64,000 bases of DNA, from NCBI GenBank assembly GCA_051294905.1, contig CM119371.1, positions 41,108,001 to 41,172,000 on the forward strand, given 5' to 3'. Position 1 is the stretch's first letter, and each line of letters begins with the position of its first letter. Below the pieces are notes generated by a model. It did not search any database. It was not told the origin of the DNA and was given only the letters and a program-made list of their open reading frames with translations. Shown piece after piece: positions 7,576 to 41,904 of this stretch. Source of the DNA: Botryllus schlosseri. Its lineage: Eukaryota. The translations under genes and the position numbers were made by a program.

Positions 7576-8616
7576 ATGGGGAGTCACAGGCAGTCTGCGG
7601 GATGTGGATGTGAGATTTGCGGCAAAGTGTTTGCCGCCAAGCGGAAATTGAAAAAGCATATGAATATTCACACTGGGTCCAAAAATTTTGAATGCGATAT
7701 TTGTGGCAAAAAGTTTCTTTCCAGTGGAAAGCTTTTGTCCCATATCGCAATACACACAGAAGCTTACACTGGCAGTTGCGAGATTTGCGGCAAAGTGTTT
7801 CACACGAGGCAGTACTTAAAAAGTCATATGGCAATTCACATAATTACCAAACACTATCAATGTGATATTTGTGGCAAAAAATTTCTTTACAGTGGACACT
7901 TTTGGGCCCATGTCAAAATACACACGAAAGAGTACATGAGCAGCTGCGAGATTTGTGGCAGGGAATGCTATTCCAAGATAGGTGTCAAGGTTCATATGAA
8001 GGTGCACCTTCCAAAGGAAACCCTCCCATGTGAGGTCTGCGGAAAGTTGTTCCTGTCGATGCCACATCTGAAAAATCACATGGCGGGACATGAAGTTAGT
8101 ATTCCTGGCTCTGAAGATGCCCAGGGCCAAAGCTTGGACGAACACTTTAAAAACAACGCCAACCTCAAAAAGTATGAATGCAAAGTGTGCGGAAAATCAT
8201 TTCCCCGAAGGATCAGTCTCATTAGACATCTCAAACATCATGCCCGGGACAGGACCCGAGACCATCCCTGTGAGGTCTGTGGCAAAATGTATTTGACAAA
8301 CCAACATTTAAAGAGACATATGATTGCTCATCTCGTGACTGCAAAAAATTTTGTATGTTCAATCTGCGGAAAGGGATTCATTACTTTCGATCAAATGAGA
8401 CTCCATATGACGTCGCATATCGTGAAGAACTATCCTTGTGAAATTTGTGGTCAGATATTACACAGCAAGCTGGGATTCATGTTGCATATGAATATGCATG
8501 CAGGGTTAACCACTCATCATTGCGAGATGTGTGGGAAGTCATTTGTCCACATCGCTAGATTAAAGCACCATCGACGCATTCACATTACCCCTAAAAATAC
8601 TGCAGCTGAGGGGTGA
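7576..8616 (+). CDS. C2H2 zinc-finger protein, 11 fingers (6+5 with a spacer)
   Basis: 11 CxxC-x12-HxxxH motifs; first ATG at 7576 (the ORF track opens at TTG 7462); no effector domain visible. Confidence 0.88.
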   Translation: MGSHRQSAGCGCEICGKVFAAKRKLKKHMNIHTGSKNFECDICGKKFLSSGKLLSHIAIHTEAYTGSCEICGKVFHTRQYLKSHMAIHIITKHYQCDICGKKFLYSGHFWAHVKIHTKEYMSSCEICGRECYSKIGVKVHMKVHLPKETLPCEVCGKLFLSMPHLKNHMAGHEVSIPGSEDAQGQSLDEHFKNNANLKKYECKVCGKSFPRRISLIRHLKHHARDRTRDHPCEVCGKMYLTNQHLKRHMIAHLVTAKNFVCSICGKGFITFDQMRLHMTSHIVKNYPCEICGQILHSKLGFMLHMNMHAGLTTHHCEMCGKSFVHIARLKHHRRIHITPKNTAAEG

Positions 8617-9679
8617 TTGCGTGAAATCATTTATGATAACAAAAGTTGTATAGTGATATTGGGAATGCGGTTTGTATTTACGTCGGTGTGACACTGCTGT
8701 ATTTGAAGTGGAGAAAAGGTTACTATAAAATGCCTTTCGGATTTTGGCCTGTTTTGATGTTTTCTCACTGCGCATCGTCACAACAAATTTTTGATTTTGA
8801 CAGCAACAGTGACAACTGCTACACAGCGTCCTTGTAATTTTGCTTAAGTACTTTCATTTTCATCGTACTCTCATGCCTTTCTGTGTTCAAAATTCATGAT
8901 TTCTCGAATTTCGCTACTGAATGTGTGTGAAACTGTGTATTGCCTTGCTATATAAACTTACTGCAACCACATCCTATCATTAGTCGCACTGTGCAAGCTG
9001 ACAGAACAAAGTTGGCACAACTTTTTTCCCTTCAGAAGGAAGTAATTTTTTATTGCCCTGTGTCTTATGTCTTCCAGTATTTTATACTTCAGGTTGCAAA
9101 TAATGATCATCGATACAGATCGTACTCGAAAAACCATAATTTTATGGAGATGTGGCTTGCTTTTCTCTCCGGCCAACCATGAGGGACGACTTTTCCTTCA
9201 ACATTAAAATTTCAATTTCAACACTGTTTTATAATTCTTAATTTTTCATAACTGCGAACTGTCCTAGTTACGTGTGCTGCTGAAATAGCCTTCATCTTAG
9301 CAGTAGGTAAATGAAATTCGCGGATACTCGTAGGACTCCTGATTCGTGGAGGCTGCGTCAAACTTGTACTGATATTGGCGCGCGACTAGCAATACAAGCA
9401 GCGATATGTGTTTGACGTCCTGTGATCATAATTGTTTGAATCGCATGTAAGGCAGATTTTTTTCTGTCCGGCATGTACTGACTGTATTTGATATTGTGAC
9501 AGCTACTTGATACTGGATGTTGTTTATATTACAATGTAATTTTGTCTTTACAGATAACAAGTGTTACAGTCTAGTTTATTCAACTTGCATTAGACCAGTT
9601 AAATTCAACTTGTAGACACTGAAACTCCAAGAAGAGACGCAGGTCGAAAATCAGTTACGTTCTCTGGGGATTTGCGGAT

Positions 9680-10380
9680 ATGGAATGTCCAATGTGCGGC
9701 AAGAACTACAAATAAAATTACATAAAGATCCACATGCGCAACCACTACAGAATCAAGCCACACGCTTGCTCCATCTGCAGCGAAGGCTTTTCCACCTAGG
9801 CAAGTCTGTAACATCACATCCTTTGAAAATGCCCCTCCATAACATTTGTCCAGACGTTTAGCAGGGACTTGCTATTGGAAAACCACACCAGTACGCAAGA
9901 CAATCGCCTATAACTGCAGCATAAAACGTATTGTGAACTGATACCGGTTACCCTCAAAATTTAGCGAAAGCGTTATTTCACGTCATACTGGTCGTTCTGG
10001 ATGAGTTTATGACGCTGTCATTGGTCATTGGTCACGCAATATAATTTTCGATACATACATTCCAGAGCAGTTAACTGGTAATGGTAATCCCGCATGTGTC
10101 TCCGCAAATATGTAGACTATAATGTTAAACAAATGCGTCTATTTCCCACCAGAAACCATTGAATTACCCTCCGGTTGGGAACCACTGTTCTAAAGGGAAG
10201 ACGTACCATTGTGAGCATTGCAACAAATCATTTCGCACCATGCGGCATGAAATTTGTTACCAAATCGTATCTGGTTAAACATATCGACATTCGCAATCCT
10301 GTTCCTAGTTATCAGTGTAAGATCTGCAGAAAGAGCTACAATACAAAATGAATCTTAAAGAGCCATATCAAAAATCCTTA
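9680..10380 (+). pseudogene. Decayed C2H2 zinc-finger gene
   Basis: MECPMCGKNYK*NYIKIHMRNHYRIKPHACSICSEGF; later YHCEHCNKSFRT and YQCKICRKSYNTK*; stops, frameshifts and inserted DNA. Confidence 0.75.
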
Positions 10381-11921
10381 GTAGGCTATTAGGCAGAAAT
10401 ATGACAGCTGTAAGGGCCAGTATGCAATCGGTGTCCTTGGCAATCGTAATCACTCGATGAAGTAGCGTTTACTGACTGAACAACTAACATAAAATGGCTG
10501 TTAGACTTTACAAATGCTATTAATTGATTCTGTATCAAGATCGTTGTCAACGGAACTGCTAATATTTTCACCAGATATTCGTTGAATTTGTGATTTAAAA
10601 TACCGGTCTCTAAAGCGAAGCGAAATCATTTCAGTAAAAGCGTCTGAGAACTTCAACAATGTCCTGCTACAATCGTATGCAACAAAATCTGTTTAGTTAC
10701 TAGAGCCCGACCAGCCAACCACTATCAATATATTCAGCCAATATTGAAAAGATATGACATGTAGCTTGAGGCGAACTTCCAAAACTTCAGAGCTTTTACT
10801 TGAACAGTTTCACAACCATCTCTTGGACATAAAATGAACTAGCAAGGCTGCACCTGTAAGCTATAAGAAATAGGGTCCGTGAATATATCTGCATGTGACA
10901 TAATATCGTATGGCACCTCAGCATGCAACAATTGGGCATGCCAAACTTGAGAATGTGGGAAAAATTTGGGATTAGGATCGGGTATGGTGCGGATTGGGTT
11001 AGGTTTAGATGTAGGTTTGGGGTTACGATATATTTTATTATTTTTGAACAGCCCTCATGCTCATATGCCAAGCGTCCAAAAATAGATCAACATTCCTAGC
11101 CTATCAGTGTTTTTCATTCTATCGCATGCTCATATGTCAAGCACCCAAAAATAGCCGTCTAGCAGTTGTAGATTATAGTTCTACTACCGTGTTGTGACTT
11201 CTGTGAATATTTTCTGTACCGATATTTCTTTGAAAGTCTGATATCAACTTGGTATTATCAGAGAACTGACAATTGGGTAGGTACAAGCCAAATACAAGGC
11301 TCTGTCCACTGATAATCATGAGCATTACTTGATGTTTCATAGCGGTGTGTTTTCATATTGACAGGTTTATATTATGAATCTTGCAATTACTTGAAATCAG
11401 AAGTTATCAGTTATGAAATAATTCTACTTTATATGACTACTCGAGTAGGTTTTGTTGAGTAGGGCTACTTACCATTACCACAACAGCCTGGTGAGTGGTG
11501 ATATAAGCCCCTGTAACCTTTGATCTTTCTATATGAGTTGTGAAGATGTATATTGTGACTTTTGAAGTGCTTGTCACAAAGTTTTCTTGATTAGATGCGA
11601 ACTAGTTTCCATCTTGTTTTGGTATGTTCTGAAAATGCTACTTCTTCTGCGACGTATATTTTAGAAGATGTTTGCTGCAATATTTGTTTTCTTTGTGGTG
11701 CTACCATTAAATGGTGTTAATGTAGTTTCTTTACTCTGATTTGATTATTTATTGTCGAAACTATTATCCTGTACCTTTGTTTGGTTCATTGAAATTGAAA
11801 TGATTACCTTCCGGGCAGGGTATGTATCGAAGTATCGCTATGGTATTGTAGTGGATAGTGTGATTTATTGGCTGCGACGAGGAGGCTTCAACTACGACAA
11901 TTGTTTTAAAAAACCTGAAGC

Positions 11922-12286
11922 ATGAGTCACCTTCATCGTAGCATGCAGCCCTCGGAATGCCCGATATGTGGGAAGAATATATCTACAAAAAAAACTTGGA
12001 ACGGCATGTGCTTGGACACTACGGAGTAAAAAAGTACAATTGCTCTATTTGTGGTCGTACGTTTACGGCAAAAACAGGTTTGGATTATCATATGAATGGT
12101 CACAAAAAAGTTTCGGATAGAAAGACATACGAATGTGAGGTATGCGGAAAATCTCTTCGTTCGAAGCGCGGCATACAGATACACATGAAGGTTCACTTAG
12201 GTATAAAAGACTACAAATGTGATATATGTGGTAATGAGTTCGTTGTCAAGACTGATTTGCATAAACACATGGACACGCACAGCTGA
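11922..12286 (+). pseudogene. 4-finger C2H2 gene with a 1-nt deletion in finger 1 (A8 run)
   Basis: ATG 11922 MSHLHRSMQPSECPICGKNISTK, then a frame change at A8 11987-11994; intact paralog at 27529. Confidence 0.8.
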
Positions 12287-13041
12287 TAACACTCGTGAAT
12301 GATCGGAATCTGGAAGTGGTTTCGATCTCGCAACGGGATGTGTTGAAATTAATCTGTAGCGGAATATGCAACTAGGATTGTAAAATATTGCTGCGTCTGC
12401 TTTCTTTCTGACATTGAATCCAAGATTCTCTTTGTTTACCATTGTGTTTTTGTTTCACTGACATAAAACGGTAAACCTGTGCCTTTTAGAATCATATCCT
12501 AACCTGAAAGTCGCGTTGACGATGTGTGTGCTCGTTTTTGCTTTTTAGTTGATTTTCAATGCTTATTCCAAGCGAGCGGCAAGTGAGTATAGGTCATTTT
12601 AAACCGACTCTTCTTGATTTGTGTCTCTTTTTTGTGAAACGAACTGGTTTCTGTACACTGTTTCTGTTATTGGTCTTATTATCTGCCGACATCAGTAATA
12701 CAAATCTCTTCTCTATATAAAACGAAGACTGCCTTCAAACATGACCCTCTCAGCTCCGACAATGTCCGAATTGTTTTCATTGCGGGAATACTAATTCTTG
12801 TATCCTCCGAGCTACACGCCAACGCGTGCCATTAAATGATGTTAATGTAGTTTCTTTACTTAGATTTGATTATTTATTGTCGAAACTATTATATTGTACC
12901 TGTGTTGGATTCATTGAAATGACCACTTTCTTGGCAGGTTACGTATCGAATTTATCGTTACGGTATTGTAGTGGATAGTGGGATTTATTGGCTGCCAGGC
13001 GGAGGCTTCATCTACGACAAATAGTCTCCGGAGCACCGAAC

Positions 13042-13425
13042 ATGAGTCACCTTCATCGTAGCCTACAGCCTGTGGATTGTCCGATATGTGGCAAGATTAT
13101 CTCCCATAAAACAAACTTGAAAAAGCATGTGCTCGGACACTACGGAGTAAAAAAGTACAATTGCTCTATTTGTGGTCGCACGTTCACCACAAAAATGGGT
13201 TTGGATTATCACATGAATGGCCACAGAAAACTTTCGGATAGAAATACGTATGAATGTGAGGTATGCGGAAAATGTCTACAGTCGAAAACCGGCATGAGGA
13301 TACACATGAAGGATCACTTGGGTATACGAGAGTACAAGTGTGATATATGTGATAAGGAGTTCATTGTCAGGGCTGATTTGTATAACCATATGAAGAAACA
13401 CACGTCTAATAACAGTCATGGATGA
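13042..13425 (+). CDS. 4-finger C2H2 zinc-finger protein
   Basis: MSHLHRSLQPVDCPICGK...; four complete fingers; first ATG at 13042. Confidence 0.82.
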   Translation: MSHLHRSLQPVDCPICGKIISHKTNLKKHVLGHYGVKKYNCSICGRTFTTKMGLDYHMNGHRKLSDRNTYECEVCGKCLQSKTGMRIHMKDHLGIREYKCDICDKEFIVRADLYNHMKKHTSNNSHG

Positions 13426-14449
13426 TCAGGATCAGCAACTGGATTAGGACATACTCGGACATAATGGGATGCGTTGAAGTCTACAACGGCATATGCAACT
13501 CGGACTGGAAAATGGTACTGCGTCGGTTCGCGGACTTCTTTCTAATATTGAACACAAGCTTTGTCTTGTAGCCATTGTGCCTGTCGAATGATATCCCAAA
13601 ATGAAAGCCTAACTGATGAAGAGTGTTCTCTCTTTTTCGTTTTTCTGGATTTTCAGTCCTTATCCCAAGCAAGAAAATTGCGCATGAGTCAGAGCTGCAA
13701 CTTTTGAAGGGTGCACCACTCTTAAAAAGGCTGAAGAACACTGGTCTGACCTACCACTAAAAATATCATATAAAATGACTGATTGGCACAACTTTTTTCC
13801 CTTCAGAAGGAAGTAATTTTTTATTGCCCTGTGTCTTATGTCTTCCAGTATTTTATACTTCAGGTTGCAAATAATGATCATCGATACAGATCGTACTCGA
13901 AAAACCATAATTTTATGGAGATGTGGCTTGCTTTTCTCTCCGGCCAACCATGAGGGACGACTTTTCCTTCAACACTAAAATTTCAATTTCAACACTGTTT
14001 TATAATTCTTAATTTTTCATAACTGCGAACTGTCCTAGTTACGTGTGCTGCTGAAATAGCCTTCATCTTAGCAGCAGGTAAATGAAGTTCGCGGATACTC
14101 GTAGGACTCCTGATGCGTTTAGGCTCCCTCAAACTTGTACTGATATTGGCGCGCGACTTGCAATACAAGCAGCGTATGTGTTTGACATCCTGTGATCATA
14201 ATTGTTTGCATCGCATGTAAGACAGATTTTTTTCTGTCCGGCATGTACTGTCTGTATGTGATATTGTGACAGCTACTTGATACTGGATGTTGTTTATATT
14301 ACAATGTAATTTTGTCTTCACAGATAACAAGTGTTACAGTCTAGTTTATTCAACTTGCATTAGACCACTTAAATTCAACTTGTAGACACTGAAACTCCAA
14401 GAAGAGACGCAGGTCGAAAATCAGTTACGTTCTCTGGGGATTTGCGGAT

Positions 14450-15778
14450 ATGGAATGTCCAATGTGCGGCAAGAACTACAAATAAAATTACATAAAGATC
14501 CACATGCGCAACCACTACAGAATCAAGCCACACGCTTGCTCCATCTGCAGCGAAGGCTTTTCCACCTAGGCAAGTCTGTAACATCACATCCTTTGAAAAT
14601 GCCCCTCCATAACATTTGTCCAGACGTTTAGCAGGGACTTGCTATTGGAAAACCACACCAGTACGCAAGACAATCGCCTATAACTGCAGCATAAAACGTA
14701 TTGTGAACTGATACCGGTAACCCTCAAAATTTAGCGAAAGCGTTATTTCACGTCATACTGGTCGTTCTGGATGAGTTTATGACGCTGTCATTGGTCATTG
14801 GTCACTAGGGCTGTTGAAAAATAACCTTTTTCCATGAATCTTGCTCATTACTTGATTAAATGGTTAGGTTGCCTTAAAAAACGACGCACACCAAATATGA
14901 ATTCATTCCAACCAATATTCGCGGATTTCGTAGAGTTTGAAAATTTTGAATTTGCCTAAAAATGCAAAACAATTTTTTTTTCAAATTTTCCTTCCAACCT
15001 TATGAAATTGTTGCGCTGTCTTCAAAAACGATGGAAAACAAATTTGACTCAATTCCAAGCTGCAGAAGCGGAGTTATTCAAGTTTTTAGATGATAATTCT
15101 GGGATGATCCACCAATCAAGGATAATCCCAGTATTATCAAAGAAAAACTGATATAACTCCACTTCTACGGCTTCGAATTGAGTCAAATTTGTTTTGCATC
15201 GTTTTTGAAGACAGCGCAACAATGTAATGGGGTTGGCAGAAAAATTTGACAAAAATTTTTTTTTGGCATTTTTAGGCAAATTCAAAATTTTCAAACTCTA
15301 CGAAATCCGCGAATATTGGTTGGAATGAATTCATATTTGGTGTGCGTCGTTTTTTAAAGCAACCTAACGATTTAATCAAGTAATCAGCAAGATTCATGGA
15401 AAAAGGTTATTTTTCAACAGCCCTATTGGTCACGCAATATAATTTTCGATACATACATTCCAGAGCAGTTAACTGGCAATGGTAATCCCGCATGTGTCTC
15501 CGCAAATATGTAGACTATAATGTTAAACAAATGCGTCTATTTCCCACCAGAAACCATTGAATTACCCTCCGGTTGGGAACCACTGTTCTAAAGGGAAGAC
15601 GTACCATTGTGAGCATTGCAACAAATCATTTCGCACCATGCGGCATGAAATTTGTTACCAAATCGTATCTGGTTAAACATATCGACATTCGCAATCCTGT
15701 TCCTAGTTATCAGTGTAAGATCTGCAGAAAGAGCTACAATACAAAATGAATCTTAAAGAGCCATATCAAAAATCCTTA
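14450..15778 (+). pseudogene. Duplicate of the decayed zinc-finger gene, with a MITE insertion
   Basis: Same lesions as 9680-10380, plus the 14806-15425 insertion. Confidence 0.75.
14806..15425. mobile_element. 620-bp foldback MITE (hAT-type)
   Basis: TAGGGCTGTTGAAAAATAACC...GGTTATTTTTCAACAGCCCTA, palindromic along almost its whole length; 8-bp TSD TTGGTCAC (14798-14805 / 15426-15433); empty site at 10028-10035. Confidence 0.96.
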
Positions 15779-17329
15779 GTAGGCTATTAGGCAGAAATAT
15801 GACAGCTGTAAGGGCCGGTATGCAATCGGTGTCCTTGGCAATCGTAATCACTCGATGAAGTAGCGTTTACTGACTGAACAACTAACATAAAATGGCTGTT
15901 AGACTTTACAAATGCTATTAATTGATTCTGTATCAAGATCGTTGTCAACGGAACTGCTAATATTTTCACCAGATATTCGTTGAATTTGTGATTTAAAATA
16001 CCGGTCTCTAAAGCGAAGCGAAATCATTTCAGTAAAAGCGTCTGAGAACTTCAACAATGTCCTGCTACAATCGTATGCAACAAAATCTGTTTAGTTACTA
16101 GAGCCCGACCAGCCAACCACTATCAATATATTCAGCCAATATTGAAAAGATATGACATGTAGCTTGAGGCGAACTCCCAAAACTTCAGAGCTTTTACTTG
16201 AACAGTTTCACAACCATCTCTTGGACATAAAATGAACTAGCAAGGCTGCACCTGTAAGCTATAAGAAATAGGGTCCGTGAATATATCTGCATGTGACATA
16301 ATATCGTATGGCACCTCAGCAAGCAACAATTGGGCATGCCAAACTTGAGAATGTGGGAAAAATTTGGGATTAGGATCGGGTATGGTGCGGATTGGGTTAG
16401 GTTTAGATGTAGGTTTGTGGTTACGATATATTTTATTATTTTTGAACAGCCCTCATGCTCATATGCCAAGCGTCCAAAAATAGATCAATATTCCTAGCCT
16501 ATCAGTGTTTTTCATTCTATCGCATGCTCATATGTCAAGCACCCAAAAATAGCCGTCTAGCAGTTGTAGATTATAGTTCTCCTACTACCGTGTTGTGACT
16601 TCTGTGAATATTTTCTATACCGATATTTCTTTGAAAGTCTGATATCAACTTGGTATTATCAGAGAACTGACAATTGGGTAGGTCCTAGTTACAAGCCAAA
16701 TACAAGGCTCTGTCCTCTGATAATCATGAGCATTACTTGATGTTTCATAGCGGTGTGTTTTCATATTGACAGGTTTATATTATGAATCTTGCAATTACTT
16801 GAAATCAGAAGTTATCAGTTATGAAATAATTCTACTTTATATGACTACTCGAGTAGGTTTTGTTGAGTAGGGCTACTTACCATTACCGCAACATCCTGGT
16901 GAGTGGTGATATAAGCCCCTGTAACATTCGATCTTTCTATATAAGTTGTGAAGATGTATATTGTGACTTTTGAAGTGCTTGTCACAAAGTTTTCTTGCTT
17001 AGATGCGAACTAGTTTCCATCTTGTTTTGGTCTGTTCTGAAAATGCTACTTCTTCTGCGACGTATATTTTAGAAGATGTTTGCTGCAATATTTGTTTTCT
17101 TTGTGGTGCTACCATTAAATGGTGTTAATGTAGTTTCTTTACTCTGATTTGATTATTTATTGTCGAAACTATTATCCTGTACCTTTGTTTGGTTCATTGA
17201 AATTGAAATGATTACCTTCCGGGCAGGGTATGTATCGAAGTATCGCTATGGTATTGTAGTGGATAGTGTGATTTATTGGCTGCGACGAGGAGGCTTCAAC
17301 TACGACAATTGTTTTAAAAAACCTGAAGC

Positions 17330-17694
17330 ATGAGTCACCTTCATCGTAGCATGCAGCCCTCGGAATGCCCGATATGTGGGAAGAATATATCTACAAAAAA
17401 AACTTGGAACGGCATGTGCTTGGACACTACGGAGTAAAAAAGTACAATTGCTCTATTTGTGGTCGTACGTTTACGGCAAAAACAGGTTTGGATTATCATA
17501 TGAATGGTCACAAAAAACTTTCGGATAGAAAGACATACGAATGTGAGGTATGCGGAAAATCTCTTCGTTCGAAGCGCGGCATACAGATACACATGAAGGT
17601 TCACTTAGGTATAAAAGACTACAAATGTGATATATGTGGTAATGAGTTCGTTGTCAAGACTGATTTGCATAAACACATGGACACGCACAGCTGA
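17330..17694 (+). pseudogene. Duplicate 4-finger gene with the same A8 frameshift
   Basis: ATG 17330; A8 at 17395-17402; otherwise near-identical to 11922-12286. Confidence 0.8.
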
Positions 17695-18449
17695 TAACAC
17701 TCGTGAATGATCGGAATCTGGAAGTGGTTTCGATCTCGCAACGGGATGTGTTGAAATTAATCTGTAGCGGAATATGCAACTAGGATTGTAAAATATTGCT
17801 GCGTCTGCTTTCTTTCTGACATTGAATCCAAGATTCTCTTTGTTTACCATTGTGTTTTTGTTTCACTGACATAAAACGGTAAACCTGTGCCTTTTAGAAT
17901 CATATCCTAACCTGAAAGTCGCGTTGACGATGTGTGTGCTCGTTTTTGCTTTTTAGTTGATTTTCAATGCTTATTCCAAGCGAGCGGCAAGTGAGTATAG
18001 GTCATTTTAAACCGACTCTTCTTGATTTGTGTCTCTTTTTTGTGAAACGAACTGGTTTCTGTACACTGTTTCTGTTATTGGTCTTATTATCTGCCGACAT
18101 CAGTAATACAAATCTCTTCTCTATATAAAACGAAGACTGCCTTCAAACATGACCCTCTCAGCTCCGACAATGTCCGAATTGTTTTCATTGCGGGAATACT
18201 AATTCTTGTATCCTCCGAGCTACACGCCAACGCGTGCCATTAAATGATGTTAATGTAGTTTCTTTACTTAGATTTGATTATTTATTGTCGAAACTATTAT
18301 ATTGTACCTGTGTTGGATTCATTGAAATGACCACTTTCTTGGCAGGTTACGTATCGAATTTATCGTTACGGTATTGTAGTGGATAGTGGGATTTATTGGC
18401 TGCCAGGCGGAGGCTTCATCTACGACAAATAGTCTCAGGAGCACCGAAC

Positions 18450-18833
18450 ATGAGTCACCTTCATCGTAGCCTGCAGCCTGTGGATTGTCCGATATGTGGC
18501 AAAATTATCTCCCATAAAACAAACTTAAAGAAGCATGTGCTCGGACACTACGGAGTAAAAAAGTACAATTGTTCTATTTGTGGTTGCACGTTCACCGCAA
18601 AAATGGGTTTGGATTATCACATGAATGGCCACAGAAAACTTTCGGATAGACATACGTATGAATGTGAGGTATGCGGAAAATGTCTACAGTCGAAAAACGG
18701 CATGAAGACACACATGAAGGTTCACTTGGGTATAAAAGAGTACAAATGTGACGTGTGTGGCAAGCAGTTCGCCAGAAGTAATAATTTGCATAGACACATG
18801 GAGACACACAGAGCTGATAGGAGTCATGAATGA
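18450..18833 (+). CDS. 4-finger C2H2 zinc-finger protein with a replaced finger 4
   Basis: Paralog of 13042-13425; finger 4 reads CDVCGKQFARSNNLHRHMETH. Confidence 0.82.
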   Translation: MSHLHRSLQPVDCPICGKIISHKTNLKKHVLGHYGVKKYNCSICGCTFTAKMGLDYHMNGHRKLSDRHTYECEVCGKCLQSKNGMKTHMKVHLGIKEYKCDVCGKQFARSNNLHRHMETHRADRSHE

Positions 18834-19352
18834 TCAAGAAACACGTGTCTAATAACAGTCATGGAGGATCAGGATCTGCAACTGGATTGAAACATACTCG
18901 GATATGATGGGATGCGTTGAAGTCTACTACGGAATTTGTAGCTCGGTTTTATAAATGGTACTGCGTCGGCTCGCGGCCTTCTTTCTAATATTGAACACAA
19001 GCTTTGTCTTGTAGCCATTGTGCCTGTCGAATGATATCCCAAAATGAAAGCCTAACTGATGAAGAGTGTTCTCTCTTTTTCGTTTTTCTGGATTTTCAGT
19101 CCTTATCCCAGGCAAGAAAATTGCGCATGAGTCAGAGCTGCAACTTTTGAAGGGTGCACCAGTGCACCACTCTTAAAAAGGCTGAAGAACACTGGTCTGA
19201 CCTACCACTAAAAATATCATATAAAATGACTGTTTCTAGGTTCAACCCATATCTATTCCGATAGACGCTTGATTTTCTGCTTACCAGAATAGAATCAAGT
19301 TTAGCGGCAGCTGCGATAAACCATTTTTAAGCAGATGAATTCAAACTTTCGC

Positions 19353-19515
19353 ATGGGGATTCACGTTCGATCCGCAGAATGTGGATGTGAAATTGTTGTA
19401 AAGTATATGCGGTTGCAAGTTTACCACAAAAACTGGTTTGGGTCGCCATATGATTGATCACAGAGATCCTTTGGATAAAAATAAGTACCATTGTAAGTGT
19501 GCGGAAAATGTCTTG
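19353..19515 (+). pseudogene. Internally deleted relic of the 7576-type zinc-finger gene
   Basis: TCAAACTTTCGCATGGGGATTCAC...GAATGTGGATGTGAAATT matches the 7576 start (MGIHVRSAECGCEI); following sequence resembles 8700-8830. Confidence 0.65.
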
Positions 19516-20440: not shown

Positions 20441-20499
20441 ATATAATAAGGTAACGGTACTCATCGTGCTCAGGCCTGATCATCGATCACACTGGTGTA

Positions 20500-21197
20500 C
20501 ACTGTGCAGACTGACATAACAAGTTGGCACAAAATCTTTACTTTTCATAATGAAGTCTTATGTTTTCTGTTACGGCATCTATAATGAAGTTTAAATGCAA
20601 ATAATGATCTTCGGTAAAGATCATACCCGTGAAACAATGATTTTATTGAGATATACCTTACTTTGCTCTCAGACCACCCTTGCATGAATATGTTTTCGAT
20701 ACTGTTTTCAAATTTTTAATTTCAATCAACGGAAGATCATTCTTGTGTGTGCTGCTGAACTAGCCTTCATCTTAGCATTGGGTAAATTAAATTCTCAGAG
20801 TTTTGGTGCTAGTTGGCTGCATCAAATTTGTAGGGTATTAAGATTAACACACGAATAGTAGGACTAATAGCAATAAATCTTGGATGTCCTGTGATTATTA
20901 TTATAATTGTTTGCATGTAATACAGTTTTTCTGTCTGAAATGTACTGTATATGTAGCTGGAAGCTGTTTATATTGCAATGTTGTATTGTATTTACAGAGA
21001 ACAAGTGTTATAGTCATAGTCAAATTTATTCAACTTGCATTAGACTGGTTATAGTCAACTTGTAGACACTCCAAGAAAAAAACTCGAGTCGAATGAGTTG
21101 CATCCTCAGGGGATTTGCGAATATCGGATGTCCAATATGTGGTAAGAAAGAGCTACAAAGAACATTACTTGAAACACCACATGCGCAACCACTGTGG
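20500..21197 (+). repeat. Older third copy of the 8990-9745 segment, including a zinc-finger relic
   Basis: Colinear diverged matches (ACTGTGCAGACTGAC..AAGTTGGCACAA, TAGCCTTCATCTTAGCA, TTTATTCAACTTGCATTAGAC, GCPICGKK..CACATGCGCAACCAC). Confidence 0.75.
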
Positions 21198-21199
21198 GA

Positions 21200-24075: not shown

Positions 24076-25455
24076 ATGGATGTGCGTGCTGACACCCCAA
24101 ATCATAAATGTGATATATGCGAGAAACTATTTGCTCGTAAGGATAGCCTCAAGCGTCATATGGATATACATGCTGGCATCAAGAACTATAAATGTTATAC
24201 ATGCGGGAAAGAAAGTACTTCAAAGAATGGCCACAAGCGTCATATGAATGTGCATGCTGGCGTCAAAAAACACAATTGTGATATTTGTGGTAGAAAATTC
24301 AGCCAGAAAGGTACCCTCAAACTTCATATGGATATGCATGCTGGCGTTCAAAGGCTTGAATGCGAAATTTGTGGGAAGGGATTTCGTCGAAGAAGTAATT
24401 TCCGTCTTCACATGGATATGCATGCTGGCATCAAAAACCATGAATGTGAAATTTGTGGAAGAAGATATTGTAGAAAAGTTGACTTGACCCACCATATGGA
24501 TATGCATTTAGGCGTTAAAAATCATAAATGTGATATATGTGGGAAAGCATTCACCTGGAAACATGAACTCAAGCTTCATCTGGATATGCACGCTGGTGGT
24601 AAAAACTATAAATGCGATATATGTGATAAAGAATTCAGGCACAAAAGTACACTGAAGATTCACATAGATATCCATGGTGGCATCGAAAACTATAAATGTA
24701 TTATATGTGAGAAAGTATTTACTGGAAAGAGCAGCCTCAAGCAGCATATGGATATGCATGCTGGAATCAGAAACTATGAATGTGATATTTGTGGGAAGGA
24801 ATATATTCAAAAAAGTAAACTCACGGTTCATATGAATATACATGCTGGCGTCAAAAATCACGAATGTAATATTTGTGGCATGACATTTACTTCAAAGGGG
24901 TGTCTCAAGAATCACATGACTATACATAATGTCTTCAAAAACTATGAATGTGAAATTTGTGGGAAGGAATTAAGTTACAAATCAACACTTAAGCTTCATA
25001 TGGATAGACATGCGGGCACAAAAAATTGTAAATGTGATGTTTGTGGAAAAGAATTTATTTACAAATGTAAACTCAAGTGTCATATGGATATGCATGCCGG
25101 CATCAAAAATCATAAATGTGAGTTATGTGGTAAAGCATTTACCTTGAAAAGCAACCTCTGGGTTCATATTGATACTCATAAAGACGTCAAAAACCACGAA
25201 TGTGATATTTGTGGGAAAGAATTTGTTCAAAAGACAGCACTAAAGCTTCACATGAATATTCATCTGAGCTTGAAAAACCATAAATGTGATGTTTGTGGGA
25301 AGGAATTTATTCAAAAAAGCAAACTTGAGTGTCATATTGATATGCATGCTGGCATCAAAAATTATAAATGTGAGTTATGTGGGAAAGGATTGCTGACTAA
25401 GCGTAATCTCGAGCGTCATATAAATGCATGCTGGGATAAAAAATCACGAATGTGA
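24076..25455 (+). CDS. Poly-C2H2 zinc-finger protein, 15 complete fingers plus a frameshift-terminated 16th
   Basis: 28-aa tandem repeats with HAGIKN(H/Y) linkers; an out-of-frame MHAGIKNHECDLC continues past the end. Confidence 0.9.
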   Translation: MDVRADTPNHKCDICEKLFARKDSLKRHMDIHAGIKNYKCYTCGKESTSKNGHKRHMNVHAGVKKHNCDICGRKFSQKGTLKLHMDMHAGVQRLECEICGKGFRRRSNFRLHMDMHAGIKNHECEICGRRYCRKVDLTHHMDMHLGVKNHKCDICGKAFTWKHELKLHLDMHAGGKNYKCDICDKEFRHKSTLKIHIDIHGGIENYKCIICEKVFTGKSSLKQHMDMHAGIRNYECDICGKEYIQKSKLTVHMNIHAGVKNHECNICGMTFTSKGCLKNHMTIHNVFKNYECEICGKELSYKSTLKLHMDRHAGTKNCKCDVCGKEFIYKCKLKCHMDMHAGIKNHKCELCGKAFTLKSNLWVHIDTHKDVKNHECDICGKEFVQKTALKLHMNIHLSLKNHKCDVCGKEFIQKSKLECHIDMHAGIKNYKCELCGKGLLTKRNLERHINACWDKKSRM

Positions 25456-27528: not shown

Positions 27529-27894
27529 ATGAGTCACCTTCATCGTAGCATGCAGCCGACGGAATGCCCGATATGTGGGAAGAGTATATCTACAAAAGCA
27601 AACTTGAAACGGCATGTGCTCGGACATTACGGAGCGAAAAAGTACGATTGCTCTATTTGTGGTCGTACGTTTACCGCAAAAACAAGTTTGGATTATCACA
27701 TGAATGGTCACAGAAGACTTTCGGATAGACAGACGTACGAATGTGAGGTGTGCGGAAAATCTCTGCGCTCGAAGCGCGGCATACACTTACATATGAAGGT
27801 TCACTTGGGTATGAAAGACTACAAATGTGATATATGTGGTAATGAGTTCATTGTCAAGACTGATTTGCATAAACACATGGACACGCACAGCTGA
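27529..27894 (+). CDS. 4-finger C2H2 zinc-finger protein (intact paralog of 11922/17330)
   Basis: Four complete fingers; flanks ~27000-28430 are homologous to ~11420-12830. Confidence 0.85.
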   Translation: MSHLHRSMQPTECPICGKSISTKANLKRHVLGHYGAKKYDCSICGRTFTAKTSLDYHMNGHRRLSDRQTYECEVCGKSLRSKRGIHLHMKVHLGMKDYKCDICGNEFIVKTDLHKHMDTHS

Positions 27895-32456: not shown

Positions 32457-33588
32457 TAGGGCGATTTTGCTTTATAAAATTGAGCGTTAAGTAGGCTTAC
32501 CATATTTTGAAAATGCAAAAAGAGGACACTTTTTCAGAAATTTGCAAGATACAAAACCGGAGTAGAATTCTCAAAAACCGGTGAATTTTTCCCACTTTGC
32601 GGTCGGTTGACTAAAAAAAAAAAAAAAAAAGGTCATCTTTTCGCTCAGAGCTAAATTCACCGTTTTTCACTCCGAGATATCCGCCGGACCGTCACTTCTG
32701 TGCTAATTTGCGGCATGTCAGACCTAAATTTTCAAAAAAGAGGACAAAATCTCAAAAAAGAGGACAAAAGGGCGTCCTCCGAGGACACTTTCAAAAAAGT
32801 CAAAAAAGAGGACAAATCCTCTTAAAAGAGGACGTATGGTAAGCCTAGCGTTAAGTCATAAAATTGTCAAAATTGTTTTTAAAGTCAAAATTTTTTGGAC
32901 CCCGCCATTTCGTTTGTATCATAGATTTGATATTTTCCAGCTTGTAGCACACTTTATAGGCCTACCGTTGTAGGCGGCCCATTGTCTGCTCCTCGTGGAT
33001 CATAAACTGTTAAACGAAACAAATAGGTTGACAATTGATATGGTGTTATGCTCAACGTACCGCAATATCCTAACTGAAGCAAGAATGCTTGACATTGTAT
33101 GGTTATTTTATCAAGAAGCGCATGATGAAAAATTGTGATGCATGATGACATTTACAGTGTGAAGCAACATGTTGTGTCACCAGCGGTGTACTCACAGCTT
33201 CAGTGTTGCCAGCCAACAACTACTGCTGTTAAACGGTATTTCTCCATTCTTGGCAAGCTACTTAGTAAGGACAAACACCCCGAGAATGTAGGAAAGTATC
33301 TTTCGTTGTACTACAACAAATTTTAATTAACTCTACCATAATACGTGGTGTAACTACTGGGCCAGATATAGATAAGATAAAAAAAATTCATGTCAAAATT
33401 TGTCAGTTTTTGGATCAAAAACGCTTTTTCGTAAGGACAGACAGTCCCTACCAGAAATAAATATAAGTAGTACAATTTTAACATTATGTGCGAAAACATC
33501 TAATTTGCGTACATGAAGTCAACATTTGGTCAAAATAAAGTTGTTTTAGGTCAAAATCCTTCGATTTTTAGGTCAAAGAATCGCCCTA
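32457..33588 (+). mobile_element. hAT deletion derivative with a transposase C-terminal relic, level 3 of stack 1
   Basis: TIR TAGGGCGATT / AATCGCCCTA; TSD GTAATTAC / GTTATTAC; 33135-33326 encodes LQCCQPTTTAVKRYFSILGKLL, resembling the hAT dimerization motif. Confidence 0.85.
32492..32847. mobile_element. 356-bp MITE with AAAAGAGGAC subterminal repeats, level 4 of stack 1
   Basis: TIR TAGGCTTACCATA / TATGGTAAGCCTA; perfect TSD GCGTTAAG; degenerate relatives near 36325-36714 and 51125-51508. Confidence 0.93.
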
Positions 33589-34994
33589 GTTATTACACCT
33601 CACATAGCTCAAATACGTGAGTATGACGTCATAAACGGTGAAAACATTTTGACCGCCTACGCCTACGGCGTGCGTAAATTATGTAGGTGGTACGCGAGCA
33701 CTGCATAAAACCTCGAAGTGGTACGTGGATGGAAAAAGGTTGGGAACCACTGATGTAATGGAACTGCTCATGATTTACTAATGAATTTCGTCATTAATAT
33801 TATTATTTTTACATATTACCATAAAACATTTCAGCCCATGTGATCAGATTCACCGGTAGAGTTGATGGAGGCGGTGTTTTCTAAAATTAAGAGCAAGTTA
33901 TGAATTATGATATATATATATATCGGCTTTCAATTAAATAAAAGGGCAAAAGAAAACAGGAAACAAAGGAACATCAAGATATCAGTTTTGGGCCCTTATC
34001 AATGAATTATGATGCATATTCGGGTCGGCCAATTGTTATTAGTCACTTTGTTGCATGCTGTTATTTCTCGACCTCCCGTCATGATTGTCGGTGTAGTGAG
34101 GAGTACACTATTCCGAGTGGGTATTTCTATATAGGGGACGCATCATTTTCCTCTACCTTTCGAATCTGTAATGTGGGGCTCTGATTGCAAAGGGCCTTAC
34201 TATAATCAAATCAAATCGAAAAATGAAGTCACATTGAATCGCGCACTGCGCGAAGAAAATTTCAAGATTAATAAAAATCTCTCAAGAAATCAGGAGTCAT
34301 TCGTAAATTCCACCTGCATTTCGGCGGCCGCCAACACATACCAATTGAATTACGTTTCCACGGCCGCACAAATTCCCTTTTACGGCCACACGTTGGCCAC
34401 CCCTGACCTTGACGGTCAACTAGTCTGATCATACCCGCATCAACCAGGTACACTTATCTCTATACAGTCTGACAGTAAGAAATGTTAGTTAAAGAGGAAA
34501 GGAAGGAAGATATATAAAATATACGGTGATAGCAAATGATCAATGAACCATGTCTGGGCAATGTTGGGCAACAGTGTCAATATGACGACAAGAGGTAGTT
34601 AAGTAGGCATATACACTTAAACCTTCATTCTCCGGTTTTGACATTTGTCAGCATTGACGCTCATGTAGAATTTCCACTGAACTACAAATAAAGATAGGTA
34701 GAGATTTCGTGACACGCCGAAAGTACTAGAGGTGTAGGGGTAATAAATGAATAGTCCAAAAAGTATTCGATTAAATTTGAAAAGTGGGCCTGTTCGAGGT
34801 GTCGCATACTTTAGTAGCAAAGCAGAGACAATTACTTTAAAAATCGCAAGTTGTTTCTTTGCCACAAGACAAAATGATCGATGACTCCGTAAACCGGTAG
34901 TCCTCGAGTCAAGTTGCAGTTTGCACAAATTAGTATTGCATTTTTTAAATGTAGGAAATGTCTTCATGAAAAGTATAAGTAGGTAAATAATTAA

Positions 34995-35080
34995 ATAGTG
35001 TATTCATGTAGAAATGAACCCGAATGTTTTCGGCTGACAGTCGTCAGGGGTAATCATCCGCAACTATAGTAGAGAGAGAA
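34995..35080 (-). mobile_element. Penelope pLTR relic with a hammerhead-like core
   Basis: Minus strand ACCC-CTGACGA-CTGTCAGCC-GAAA-ACATTC-GGGT; the stem II closing G is changed to C. Confidence 0.8.
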
Positions 35081-39213: not shown

Positions 39214-40836
39214 ATGCTTGCTGGTATAAAAAATCATCAATGTGATATATGCGGGAAAAAAACCTCCAGGAAGAGCCACCACGGGCGTCATATGGATATG
39301 CATTATGGTTTCAAAAATCATAAATGTGAAGTATGTGGGAAAAGATTTACCAGGAAGGAAGGACTCAAAAGACATATGACTATGCATACTGGCATCAAAA
39401 ATCATGAGTGTGACATATGCGGGAAAGCATTTGCTCGCAAAGGTGAACTCAACGTACATTTGGATTGGCATGCTGGCATCAAAAACCATAAGTGTGATAT
39501 TTGTGGTAAAAGATTTAGTCAAAGCAGCATATTAAGAGGTCATATAGATATGCATGCTGGTGTGAAAAACTACAAATGTCATATATGTGGAAAATCCTTT
39601 ACTCTGAAGAACGATTTGAAGCTTCATTTGGATGGGCATGCCGGCGTCAAAAACAGAGAGTGTGATATTTGTGGTAAAAGATTTGGACAACACTCTCATC
39701 TAAAGAGTCATATCGATATGCATGCAGGCCTAAAAAAACATACATGTGTTATATGTAGAAAATCCTTTACTCTGAAGAGCGAATTATACCTTCATACGCA
39801 TATTCATACTGGCATCAAAAAACACGAATGTGATATTTGTGGTAGAAAGTTCGGTCATAAAACTCCACTCAATGTTCATATGAATATGCATGCTGGTGTC
39901 AATAAGCTTAAATGTGATATTTGTGGGAAGGGATTCCGTCTAAAAAGTAAGCTCCAGCGTCACATGGATATGCATGCTGGAATCAAAAACCATGAATGCG
40001 AAATTTGTGGAAAGAGATATTTCGATAAAATTGACTTAACCCGCCACATTGATATGCATGCTGGCGTTAAAAATTTTAAATGCAATATATGTGGGAAAGC
40101 ATTTTCATTCAGGATTAGCCTCAAACTTCATATTGATACACACGCTGACAGCAAAGAACATAAATGTGATATCTGTGGTAAAGAATTCAGTCGCAAAGGT
40201 GAACTCAAGAAGCACTTCGATATGCATGTTGACATCAAAAATTATGAATGTGTTATATGTGCAAAAGCATTTACTAGAAAGAGTAGCCTCAAAAATCATA
40301 TGGGTATGCATGCTGGCATCAGAAACCATGAATGTGATATTTGTGGAAAAAAATTTATTCATAAAAGTAAACTCAATGCTCATATGGCTATACATGCGGG
40401 CGTCAAGAATCATAACTGTTACATATGTGGTAAGGCATTTATTTCAAAGTCTGGCCTCAAGAATCACATGAATACGCATGCAGCAGTCAAAAACTATCTA
40501 TGTGAAATCTGTGGGAAAGAATTAGGATATAAACATACATTCAAGAACCACATGGACATGCATGTTGGCATCAAAAACCATAAATGTGATGTTTGTGGAA
40601 AAGAATTCCTTGTAAAAAGTAAACTTGAGCTTCACATGGATATGCATGTTGGTGTCAAACGTCATAAATGTGATATATGTGCGCGAGCGTTCACTTTCAA
40701 GGATAACCTCACGGTTCATATTGGTACACATTCTGGTGTTAAAAACTACAAATGTGATATTTGTGGAAAAGAATTCCGTTTGAAGGGAACACTCAAGTTT
40801 CACATGGAATTTCATGATGGCTTAAAAAAAACATAA
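39214..40836 (+). CDS. Poly-C2H2 zinc-finger protein, 19 fingers
   Basis: 19 tandem fingers with AGIKN(H/Y)-type linkers; decayed fingers both upstream (39157-39213) and downstream (to ~41060). Confidence 0.9.
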   Translation: MLAGIKNHQCDICGKKTSRKSHHGRHMDMHYGFKNHKCEVCGKRFTRKEGLKRHMTMHTGIKNHECDICGKAFARKGELNVHLDWHAGIKNHKCDICGKRFSQSSILRGHIDMHAGVKNYKCHICGKSFTLKNDLKLHLDGHAGVKNRECDICGKRFGQHSHLKSHIDMHAGLKKHTCVICRKSFTLKSELYLHTHIHTGIKKHECDICGRKFGHKTPLNVHMNMHAGVNKLKCDICGKGFRLKSKLQRHMDMHAGIKNHECEICGKRYFDKIDLTRHIDMHAGVKNFKCNICGKAFSFRISLKLHIDTHADSKEHKCDICGKEFSRKGELKKHFDMHVDIKNYECVICAKAFTRKSSLKNHMGMHAGIRNHECDICGKKFIHKSKLNAHMAIHAGVKNHNCYICGKAFISKSGLKNHMNTHAAVKNYLCEICGKELGYKHTFKNHMDMHVGIKNHKCDVCGKEFLVKSKLELHMDMHVGVKRHKCDICARAFTFKDNLTVHIGTHSGVKNYKCDICGKEFRLKGTLKFHMEFHDGLKKT

Positions 40837-41904
40837 ATGTGGTATTTGTGCAAATGAATTTATCCGAAAAATTATTCTCAAGTGGATAGGCATTAAAATC
40901 ATCAATGTGAAGTACTACTCTATGTTGGAGAGAAATCACTTCGACGCGGGGCATCAAAATTCATATGGATGCATAATGTACATGTTACTTCAAATATCAT
41001 GTGATGTATGTGGGACTGTATTTACCCAAAATAGCGACCACAAGTGTCATATGGATAAGCGGCTGTAACGACATGATACCACGTTTTATTTCCAGTGTTT
41101 TTAAACTGTTATCTCTGAAAGCTTGCTCATTGCTGTGTAGTGGTAAATATTGCATTTTCTGAGATTCAAATTTTCTGCAGGAAGCAATCGTCAATGAATT
41201 TCCGCTCTCTATACCTTTTCGATAAAGACCCCTGATTCGAACGTGTCCCAATGGCTATTGGGATTATCCAATAGTGTTTCCCTATATTGAGTTCATGCAC
41301 ATTGTGTGTGGTCTCCTTTTGGTCCCGTCGGAGGATTTCTGCCGTAAGTGTAGGGAAGGTGTGTCAGGATCTCAGCACTGCAGGTACACCTCCGTTATTT
41401 CAAGAAATTATGCCCTATTCTGTCAGACTGGGAAGGCGTGTTGGCAACCAATGCGGGTCATGATGAACATTTTTTCGATCTGGCCTGTATATAACAAATG
41501 CGCAATGTCTTTGCCACCAAATGTTTAGTAGTTTCCCAAAAATTTAAATCGAAACTCTGCAGTTTGCAGACTCAAGTAGGCCAATACAAACCATATCTTT
41601 CATATCGCATGCTATTGTCACATTTTGGATTCAATATTCTCGAGACTGCGATCTCTTTCTTTGCATGTAAATAAGCGACTCTACTGCTGCTTGATTTTTA
41701 TACTTTTCATATTGATCATTAATATCACAATTGTGCTGGCGACGAAATTGGGGTCATCGTATCGAACATACCTGGGTTCGGCACTTACGGGTTTCAGATC
41801 ATCAACACAGGCAAGCAAATCTGGTATAGTATAATCGGCTATTGCACATATACGTAACCATGATAAATTGATGCTACTTTGGTAAATTAGATACATTTTC
41901 AGAT

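What the first reader, a model, noticed from the sequence alone, without database searches (positions are those of the whole stretch)
7576..41060. Effector-less poly-C2H2 zinc-finger cluster in rapid birth-and-death among dense transposons
Seen: six intact ORFs (11, 4, 4, 15-16, 4 and 19 fingers), two frameshifted copies and about four relics, all on the + strand and each in one coding exon. They consist almost only of fingers, with no KRAB, SCAN, ZAD or BTB domain visible. Most use a family-specific linker such as HAGIKN(H/Y) or H(Y/L)G(V/I)K(K/D/E)Y instead of TGEKP. Established: KRAB-ZFPs (tetrapods), ZAD-ZNFs (insects) and FiNZ genes (cyprinid fish) are tandem, fast-turnover families linked to transposon control. 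Inference: this may be an independent lineage-specific, adaptively evolving DNA-binding repertoire, possibly targeting the abundant MITE subterminal arrays nearby.
Basis: partly seen in the sequence, partly recalled or inferred. Interest (0 to 1): 0.78.

Follow-up and report, generated by a model that had tools for sequence, protein, structure and literature searches.

The report
Fast-turnover zinc-finger gene cluster
This is a real cluster of small, fingers-only zinc-finger genes that keeps duplicating and decaying, a familiar kind of animal gene family; some copies may be switched on by read-through from a neighbour, and no link to transposon control was shown.

Summary
Largely confirmed. 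Six + strand ORFs carry 11, 4, 4, 16, 4 and 19 fingers, beside two frameshifted 4-finger copies and about six relic segments. None of 52 linkers is TGEKP. Pfam finds no KRAB, SCAN, ZAD or BTB domain. The two longest ORFs are clipped remnants of longer arrays.

Finger framework is under purifying selection (dN/dS 0.21). DNA-contact residues change faster (1.19, 95% interval 0.86-1.65), so adaptive evolution is not shown. One single-cell RNA run shows low, sense-strand reads. Two of the three MITE motifs lie wholly outside the cluster; targeting is untested.

Added here: the C-type genes were duplicated with a splice acceptor but without their paralogue's upstream block, and reads pile up about 170 nt before that acceptor. 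This fits a Ciona-type trans-spliced operon (about 45%; no leader-bearing read seen). The sea-squirt identity rests on unchecked notes of this scan. The scan noted other zinc-finger clusters in this genome but no sequence look-alike.

The parts
7576..8616 (+). Gene A: 346 aa, 11 C2H2 fingers (6 + 29-aa spacer + 5), mixed linkers; frame open upstream to 7438, so an upstream coding exon is not excluded
   Evidence: not covered by the read lay
9012..13784 (+). Young tandem duplicate, copy 1 (relics R1 and R2, B1, C1)
9635..10430 (+). Decayed finger relics R1 (9635-9890) and R2 (10163-10430); candidate donor 9307 and acceptor 9553
11409..11818 (+). Upstream block shared by B1, B2 and B3 (candidate promoter/outron; donor-like site at 11491), ending at the conserved AG acceptor 11818
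   Evidence: function inferred
11922..12286 (+). B1: 4-finger gene with 1-nt frameshift in an 8-A run (35-aa peptide)
12829..12937 (+). Acceptor block of C1; homology to B starts here, about 110 nt before the acceptor, without B's upstream block
13042..13425 (+). C1: intact 127-aa 4-finger gene; finger 4 is B-like (83% nt to B3 finger 4)
13783..19235 (+). Young tandem duplicate, copy 2; 37 differences in 4272 nt outside the C region
14405..14660 (+). Relic R1b (copy of R1); acceptor 14323
14806..15425 (.). 620-bp MITE with long inverted arms and an 8-bp target-site duplication (hAT-like, recalled label), absent from copy 1
15561..15825 (+). Relic R2b (copy of R2)
17330..17694 (+). B2: frameshifted copy of B1; acceptor 17226
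17695..18345 (+). Inferred 3' UTR of B running to the acceptor of C; about 116 single-cell reads in bin 17792-18458, fitted centre 18175 (reads may come from either duplicate copy)
18450..18833 (+). C2: intact 127-aa 4-finger gene; finger 4 replaced (65% nt to C1 finger 4) with a 35-nt insertion
19204..19500 (+). Relic A' (homology to A begins at 7429 / 19204)
20500..21195 (+). Relic R1c with its upstream block (acceptor 20997), cut off by a MITE
24076..25455 (+). Gene D: 459 aa, 16 fingers, HAG[IV]KN-type linkers; ends at a frameshift, decayed finger behind; candidate in-frame acceptor at 24054
   Evidence: frameshift also in a DNA-run contig (25344-25723, 0 gaps)
27529..27894 (+). B3: intact 121-aa 4-finger gene; acceptor 27423; upstream block from 26992; reads both upstream of the acceptor and in the 3' UTR
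39214..40836 (+). Gene E: 540 aa, 19 fingers; collinear with D at an offset of 5 fingers; dead finger in front, decayed fingers behind to about 41060
   Evidence: not covered by the read lay

Best explanation
A local family of small C2H2-only genes evolving by birth and death. SHOWN: it grew by nested tandem duplications (an older block from about 7429 copied at 19204; a 4.77-kb block copied recently). Individual fingers were swapped between paralogues, and many copies are decaying. The finger framework is under purifying selection while the four DNA-contact positions change about five times faster. The region is transcribed on the sense strand at a low level. INFERRED: the proteins are sequence-specific DNA binders without an effector, acting by occupancy or through partners; each new copy samples new specificities. 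INFERRED (about 45%): cassettes are opened by splice acceptors about 105 nt before the ATG that receive a trans-spliced leader. B has its own upstream block; C was copied with only the acceptor region and is expressed by read-through from B as a Ciona-type operon. A duplicate would then need no promoter to be born alive.
For: Duplications and breakpoints. dN/dS: framework 0.21 (0.15-0.30), contact 1.19 (0.86-1.65) over 15 finger pairs; contact versus framework p 5e-17. C1/C2 region differs at 55 of 500 nt against 37 of 4272 in the rest of the young duplicate. Reads: in 12 low-repeat bins of 30, about 334 second mates on + against about 3 on - (run X21; converted from mean depth). Conserved AG acceptor in 5 of 5 B/C cassettes, 103-105 nt before the ATG, with in-frame stops between. 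B/C homology starts about 110 nt before the acceptor, B/B homology about 410-430 nt before it. About 116 reads lie in the bin before C2's acceptor against about 2 in the bin holding C2's ORF; fitted centre 170 nt upstream of the acceptor. Ciona operons abut at the acceptor, are rich in single-exon genes, and outrons are U-rich with median 458 nt (PMC1488885, PMC2760879, PMC11155486, passages). T content before the B, C and R acceptors is in the 95th-100th percentile of the window.
Against: No leader-bearing read and no GT-AG joint among those displayed (24 of 1983 loose ends, 15 of 252 joints, nearly all from repeats). Library chemistry (3' end, second mate = sense) is inferred from read lengths; if it were a 5' library the reads would be antisense. 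The peak centre comes from a one-Gaussian fit to three numbers, and the 170-nt offset to the poly(A) site is recalled, not measured. Peaks in acceptor-holding bins are not significant alone (p 0.12). A-rich tracts at 14471 and 18513, and ATTAAA at 18239, offer other priming or 3'-end sites. Strong donor-like sites exist upstream of B1/B2 and C1/C2. D and E acceptors are not T-rich (17th-84th percentile). Bulk run X23 has depth 0 on B2 and 1.6 or less on D and B3. The ascidian identity is from unchecked notes; my own search with a flanking exon listed no tunicate among 47 hits. DNA binding is untested, and the lost TGEKP linker argues for caution (PMC11327367, passage).
Confidence: 0.55

Rival explanations
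1. Same birth-and-death gene family, but each gene is conventional: own promoter, non-coding first exon, cis-spliced intron, one coding exon. Reads upstream of acceptors are unspliced RNA primed on A-rich tracts or ordinary 3' ends.
For: Donor-like sites at 11491/16899 (B), 12583/17991 (C) and 9307/14078/20782 (R). Five molecules start at 27213, 210 nt before B3's acceptor, which may be a start site. ATTAAA at 18239 could end B's mRNA about 85 nt before C's acceptor.
Against: C's putative first intron holds about 116 reads while C2's ORF bin and the next bin hold about 2 and 6, the wrong ratio for intronic reads. A promoter for C would have to sit inside B's 3' UTR. C lacks B's upstream block. 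In Ciona, trans-splicing also occurs at acceptors that have an upstream donor (PMC11155486, passage).
Confidence: 0.3
2. One reading: an adaptively evolving repertoire that binds and silences transposons, in particular the local MITE arrays. Not exclusive of the best explanation.
For: Contact positions are the most variable. Finger 4 was swapped between otherwise 99% identical duplicates. Across metazoans ZNF number tracks retroelement number, independent of accessory domain, and predicted motifs are enriched in TEs in four non-mammalian species (PMC10547256, passages and section 4).
Against: Contact dN/dS is not significantly above 1; relaxed constraint fits as well. No repressor domain found. 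Two of three named motifs are absent from the cluster. 18 of 35 D/E fingers have a hydrophobic residue at +6 against 1497 of 5778 database fingers (p 0.0015; fingers are related, so p is optimistic). The words tunicate and Ciona do not occur in the main text of PMC10547256.
Confidence: 0.2
3. A and D (and relatives elsewhere) are the last exons of larger genes, with an upstream coding exon that adds an effector, as in KRAB and FiNZ genes; the effector may be absent from Pfam.
For: A's frame is open for 46 codons before the ATG with a candidate acceptor at 7469; D has a candidate acceptor at 24054 in phase 0 with no stop before the ATG. FiNZ is a 28-aa domain on its own exon with no similarity to known domains (PMC10547256 section 4), shorter than the 42-aa floor of my scan.
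Against: No effector hit in 142 frames scanned. Excluded at the conserved acceptor for 5 of 5 B/C cassettes and at both candidate acceptors of E. No shared upstream stretch between D and E was found above shuffled controls.
Confidence: 0.2
4. The arrays are mainly RNA- or protein-binding modules rather than DNA-binding factors.
For: 0 of 45 seven-residue linkers keep the proline; threonine is mostly lost. TGEKP is described as highly predictive of DNA binding (PMC11327367, passage). Hydrophobic +6 residues are frequent.
Against: Linkers keep length 7, Gly at +2 (27 of 33 D/E) and Lys at +4 (28 of 33), the residues that paper links to helix capping and backbone contact. Variation is concentrated at -1, +2, +3 and +6, the DNA-reading positions.
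Confidence: 0.1
5. The cluster is mostly dead debris, or the young 4.77-kb duplicate is an assembly artefact (two alleles placed in tandem).
For: Of 8 near-full cassettes, 2 are frameshifted early and 2 are clipped. Copies differ by under 1% outside C. In run X1 only the copy-1 form is listed at 19111 and 19154.
Against: Framework dN/dS 0.21-0.26. Sense-strand reads. Clean junction with no gap. X1 summed depth is 32-37 in 4 of 6 low-repeat bins over the duplicate (the others 19 and 62) against 11-23 in 4 single-copy bins; an X1 contig matches copy 2 over 1332 nt with 0 differences. The tool warns that summed depth is no copy number.
Confidence: 0.1

Closest known systems
Lineage-specific tandem C2H2 ZNF expansions of metazoans (Wells et al. 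2023, PMC10547256: section 4 and passages; Wolf et al. 2015, PMC4592553: passages)
   Same: Tandem same-strand cluster, local duplication, finger arrays in one exon, gain and loss of fingers, variable contact residues, many dead copies.
   Different: No known effector domain; proline-less xG[IV]KN-type linker; several members have only 4 fingers (below that paper's threshold of 5); possible expression through trans-splice acceptors.
KRAB-ZFPs (tetrapods) and FiNZ-ZNFs (cyprinid fish)
   Same: Cluster dynamics and the framework-conserved, contact-variable pattern.
   Different: Their defining N-terminal domain on an upstream coding exon is not found here; TE binding and repression are shown for them and untested here; positive selection is shown for some FiNZ clades and not here.
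SL-resolved operons of Ciona (PMC1488885, PMC2760879, PMC11155486: passages)
   Same: Same-strand neighbours, single-exon genes, U-rich stretch before an acceptor, RNA of the upstream gene apparently ending near the downstream acceptor.
   Different: Here the members are paralogues in a fast-turnover family. Leader joining and the exact poly(A) site were not observed, so membership is open.
zf-C2H2 family expansion in tunicates (PMC8122590: passages)
   Same: C2H2 number is the most variable transcription-factor class among tunicates; most members lack BTB.
   Different: The passages read give counts and chromosome maps; 'tandem' does not occur in the main text. One Styela clava protein among my hits is only 32% identical and carries TGEKP linkers.

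Membership tests
Tandem C2H2 poly-zinc-finger genes | Arrays of C-x2-C-x12-H-x3-H fingers in one ORF | tested here: met
   58 fingers in six ORFs. Three ORFs reach the 5-finger threshold of PMC10547256; the 4-finger genes do not.
Tandem C2H2 poly-zinc-finger genes | Local duplication with birth and death | tested here: met
Tandem C2H2 poly-zinc-finger genes | Canonical TGEKP linker | tested here: not met
   0 of 52; 0 of 45 with Pro at position 5
KRAB-, SCAN-, ZAD- or BTB-ZNF | N-terminal effector domain | tested here: not met
   No Pfam hit in six ORFs or 142 flanking frames of 42 aa or more; shorter frames and exons upstream of the window not scanned
FiNZ-ZNF | 28-aa acidic domain on an upstream coding exon | tested here: inconclusive
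   Excluded by in-frame stops at the conserved acceptor for B/C and E; open for A and D. No FiNZ profile was run.
TE-repressing ZNFs (works-like question) | Positive selection on contact residues | tested here: inconclusive
   dN/dS 1.19, 95% interval 0.86-1.65, 15 finger pairs, pairwise counting method
TE-repressing ZNFs (works-like question) | Binding to and repression of transposons | not testable with these tools
   No binding predictor or ChIP data; motif positions only
Ciona-type SL-resolved operon | Same-strand neighbours with the upstream 3' end at the downstream acceptor | tested here: inconclusive
   Read peak centred about 170 nt before C's acceptor; exact poly(A) site not seen
Ciona-type SL-resolved operon | Spliced leader joined at the downstream acceptor | tested here: inconclusive
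   None among 24 of 1983 loose ends shown; the list was filled by repeats
Ciona-type SL-resolved operon | Host has SL trans-splicing | not tested
   Stated in unchecked notes of this scan; not verified here

The most novel reading that the evidence does not exclude
A fast-turnover DNA-binding repertoire built on trans-splicing: zinc-finger cassettes are copied with little more than a splice acceptor, are expressed at once by read-through in leader-resolved operons, and swap single fingers between copies. A dead upstream gene (B1/B2) may persist as the transcription feed for the live downstream one (C1/C2). The proteins use a proline-less linker and no effector. This would be a route to zinc-finger family expansion that vertebrate KRAB and fish FiNZ clusters do not have.
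Probability: 0.3. Interest if true: 0.7.

Novelty: new variant of a known kind. Interest (0 to 1): 0.42.

Why it matters
Tandem zinc-finger expansions are common in animals, so the cluster alone is ordinary. Two points would matter if they hold. First, it would show trans-splicing lowering the cost of gene birth, because a duplicate needs an acceptor and no promoter; this can be tested with existing RNA reads. Second, 4-finger, 121-127 aa proteins with nothing but fingers, two of which differ mainly in finger 4, are an easy system to ask what effector-less zinc-finger families bind in an invertebrate, and whether a linker without proline still supports DNA binding.

Tried and rejected
No whole genome is held, so genome-wide copy counts and sister-species orthology could not be run. 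Homology searches with D and A gave only generic zinc-finger proteins (best local identities 45%; one search scored only the 8000 best candidates). The HMMER search with B3 was swamped by very long finger arrays (28-39% identity, best 150 of 125372) and says nothing on close relatives. A flanking exon (pseudouridine glycosidase + PfkB kinase gene) did not fix the lineage. No RNA holder was listed on record in the run index. Run X7, guessed to be RNA, has even depth like DNA and was not used as expression evidence. Unnamed database proteins with proline-less linkers share an N-terminal motif that is not in the window (best E 0.21) and has no Atlas hit; they are not the closest relatives at finger level, so rejected as a hidden effector. 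Rfam: no match. Earlier-finding look-ups by sequence, by words and near this place found nothing. Literature searches with no paper holding all terms: TGEKP + non-canonical + invertebrate; Ciona + zinc finger genes + C2H2 + cluster + operon; C2H2 + single exon + tandem clusters + octopus. Searches listed papers that I saw as listings only, apart from PMC8122590 and PMC4592553; none described a zinc-finger operon in title or abstract start. The library lacks most subscription papers, so absence from print is not established. No supplements were read. I did not predict binding sites: no predictor is on hand and a recalled code would be unreliable. No fold was run; the domain is certain.


Full report
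OBSERVATION. A six-frame pattern scan and Pfam confirm six + strand ORFs made almost only of C2H2 fingers. I label them A (7576-8616, 11 fingers), C1 (13042-13425, 4), C2 (18450-18833, 4), D (24076-25455, 16), B3 (27529-27894, 4) and E (39214-40836, 19). B1 (11922-12286) and B2 (17330-17694) are copies of B3 with a 1-nt frameshift in an 8-A run, leaving 35 residues. About six relic segments lie between them, all on +. D and E are clipped: D ends at a frameshift with a decayed finger behind it, and E has a stop before a degenerate first finger and decayed fingers after its end. D's frameshift is also in a contig of DNA run X1 (0 gaps over 25344-25723); a contig of run X7 over the same stretch has 7 gap letters at places not shown.

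LINKER AND EFFECTOR. None of 52 linkers is TGEKP. None of 45 seven-residue linkers has the proline, against 2952 of 3709 in 308 database proteins taken from my own searches, which are not a random sample. Gly at +2 and Lys at +4 are kept in 27 and 28 of 33 D/E linkers. A has mixed linkers. Pfam finds no KRAB, SCAN, ZAD or BTB domain in the ORFs or in 142 + strand frames of 42 aa or more in 1-39300; 155 frames of 30-41 aa and the second duplicate copy were left out. All five B/C cassettes have a conserved AG 103-105 nt before the ATG with in-frame stops between, so no coding exon can be added there. E is also closed at both candidate acceptors. A and D are open. A FiNZ-sized domain (28 aa, PMC10547256 section 4) would escape my scan.

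HISTORY. An older duplication copied a block starting near 7429 to 19204 (A to A', R1 to R1c, B1 to B3; 68-81% identity). A young one copied 9012-13784 to 13783-19235 with a clean junction. A 620-bp MITE with an 8-bp target-site duplication sits only in copy 2. The young copies differ at 37 of 4272 nt outside the C region but at 55 of 500 nt within it. Finger 4 of C1 is B-like (83%), while finger 4 of C2 is 65% like C1's and has no match above 71% in the window. I infer a patch copied from a paralogue elsewhere. D and E are collinear at an offset of five fingers (76% against about 65% background). Summed depth of DNA run X1 inside D is 1241 against 11-23 in single-copy bins, a hint that D has many relatives in the genome, whereas B and C look local; the tool warns that this is no copy number.

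SELECTION. Over 15 finger pairs (11 clear D-E pairs, chosen from 14 by dropping D1, D2 and D6, plus 4 B3-C1 pairs), dN/dS is 0.21 (0.15-0.30) outside the contact positions and 1.19 (0.86-1.65) at -1, +2, +3 and +6. All 14 D-E pairs give 0.26 and 1.16. These were working genes for most of their divergence, and the contact residues are free to change. Positive selection is not shown (p 0.24). The method is pairwise counting with a simple distance correction.

EXPRESSION. I laid four runs on 13790-33789; A, B1, C1 and E were not in the stretch, though B1/C1 reads can map to B2/C2. In single-cell run X21 (3% of the run read), 12 low-repeat bins of 30 hold about 334 second mates on + and about 3 on - (converted from mean depth). 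D's three bins hold about 7, 11 and 3, with none on the other strand. I infer a 3' library from read lengths, which makes these sense reads. Bulk run X23 (6% read) has depth 1.6 or less on D and B3 and 0 on B2. X7 behaves like DNA and was set aside. So 'no transcripts' is refuted for part of the cluster, at a low level and on one run.

HOW THE GENES MAY BE EXPRESSED. Notes of this scan call the genome a sea squirt with a spliced leader (unchecked; my own lineage search was uninformative). In Ciona, about a fifth of genes lie in operons rich in single-exon genes, and the upstream 3' end abuts the downstream trans-splice acceptor (PMC2760879 and PMC1488885, passages). Outrons are U-rich, median 458 nt, and trans-splicing also uses acceptors that have an upstream donor (PMC11155486, passages). 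Three things here fit. First, B copies share 410-430 nt upstream of the acceptor, but C shares only about 110 nt with B, and C has still been under purifying selection. Second, about 116 reads lie between B2's stop and C2's acceptor and about 2 in the bin of C2's ORF; a fit puts their centre 170 nt before the acceptor. Reads starting at 27213 centre 165 nt before B3's acceptor, and bins holding the R1b and R1c acceptors have about 30 and 62 reads. Third, the 150 nt before the B, C and R acceptors are in the top 5% of the window for T. Against: no leader or splice joint was among the rows shown (24 of 1983 loose ends, 15 of 252 joints). The bin pattern alone has p 0.12. The offset from peak to poly(A) site is recalled. 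ATTAAA at 18239 and A-rich tracts offer other explanations. Donor-like sites exist upstream, and D and E acceptors are not T-rich. I put the B-to-C operon at about 45%.

TRANSPOSON TARGETING. GACTCGAGTC (22) and GGGGGCG (18) have no copy inside the cluster; AAAAGAGGAC has 5 of 6 inside, within about 300 nt. Zinc-finger proteins act in trans, so position says little either way. The general case rests on PMC10547256 (section 4 and passages), whose main text does not mention tunicates and which calls for direct validation. 18 of 35 D/E fingers have a hydrophobic residue at +6 (database 26%), and TGEKP is described as predictive of DNA binding (PMC11327367, passages), so even DNA binding needs a test. 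I rate targeting at about 20%.

COMPARISON AND VERDICT. The cluster works like the lineage-specific tandem ZNF expansions known across animals. Only 30-40% of mammalian tandem ZFPs carry KRAB, and other vertebrates few or none (PMC4592553, passages). C2H2 number is the most variable factor class among tunicates (PMC8122590, passages). It is not a KRAB, SCAN, ZAD or BTB family member on the tests run. No close relative appeared in three protein searches, the last uninformative. What sets it apart is the proline-less linker, the very small 4-finger members, and the possible promoter-less, trans-spliced mode of birth, which I did not find in print; the library lacks most subscription papers and I read no supplements. 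Verdict: real, a variant of a known kind, interest 0.42; 0.7 if the operon route is confirmed.

Noticed in passing
window:3225-5143: Penelope-like retroelement (recalled label): 576-aa reverse-transcriptase frame on - (3389-5119, RVT_1 E 5e-08) between 179-nt inverted termini of 99% identity; decayed termini at 34998, 58494 and 62715.
   Followed up: no
window:47944-62540: Multi-exon gene on - for a bifunctional pseudouridine-5'-phosphate glycosidase + PfkB kinase; exons seen by translation, one exon about 60% identical to animal and fungal proteins. Its introns are full of MITE copies.
   Followed up: partly
window:9262-9511 versus 14030-14280: A second patch of raised divergence between the young duplicates (13 differences in 249 nt) around the relic's donor-like site; possibly another conversion tract.
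   Followed up: no
window:11985-11995 and 17393-17403: The B1/B2 frameshift lies in an 8-A run read as A AAA AAA in the starting frame, a slippage-prone pattern (recalled); whether slippage gives any full-length protein is unknown. B1/B2 also carry two upstream ATGs in the 5' UTR.
   Followed up: no
window:27213: Five single-cell molecules begin here (depth 19), after a T-rich stretch and 210 nt before B3's acceptor; not an AG site, so possibly a transcription start.
   Followed up: partly
proteins P0063, P0077, P0170, P0195 and cluster members: An unnamed family of proline-less poly-zinc-finger proteins from public assemblies shares a short N-terminal motif, extended to about 50 aa in two members; not in this window, no Atlas hit. 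A candidate undescribed effector domain of another lineage.
   Followed up: partly
protein P0080: One unnamed 433-aa protein has HAGIK-type linkers and a short N-terminus, 39% identical to D; origin unknown.
   Followed up: no
window:32490-32847: Very high-copy element carrying the AAAAGAGGAC array; summed DNA depth about 229,000 in its bin and the highest RNA depth in the laid stretch, mostly reads from other loci.
   Followed up: no
window:54339-54804 and 47341-47541: A 43-44 nt tandem array (11 copies) and a G-rich 21-24 nt array.
   Followed up: no
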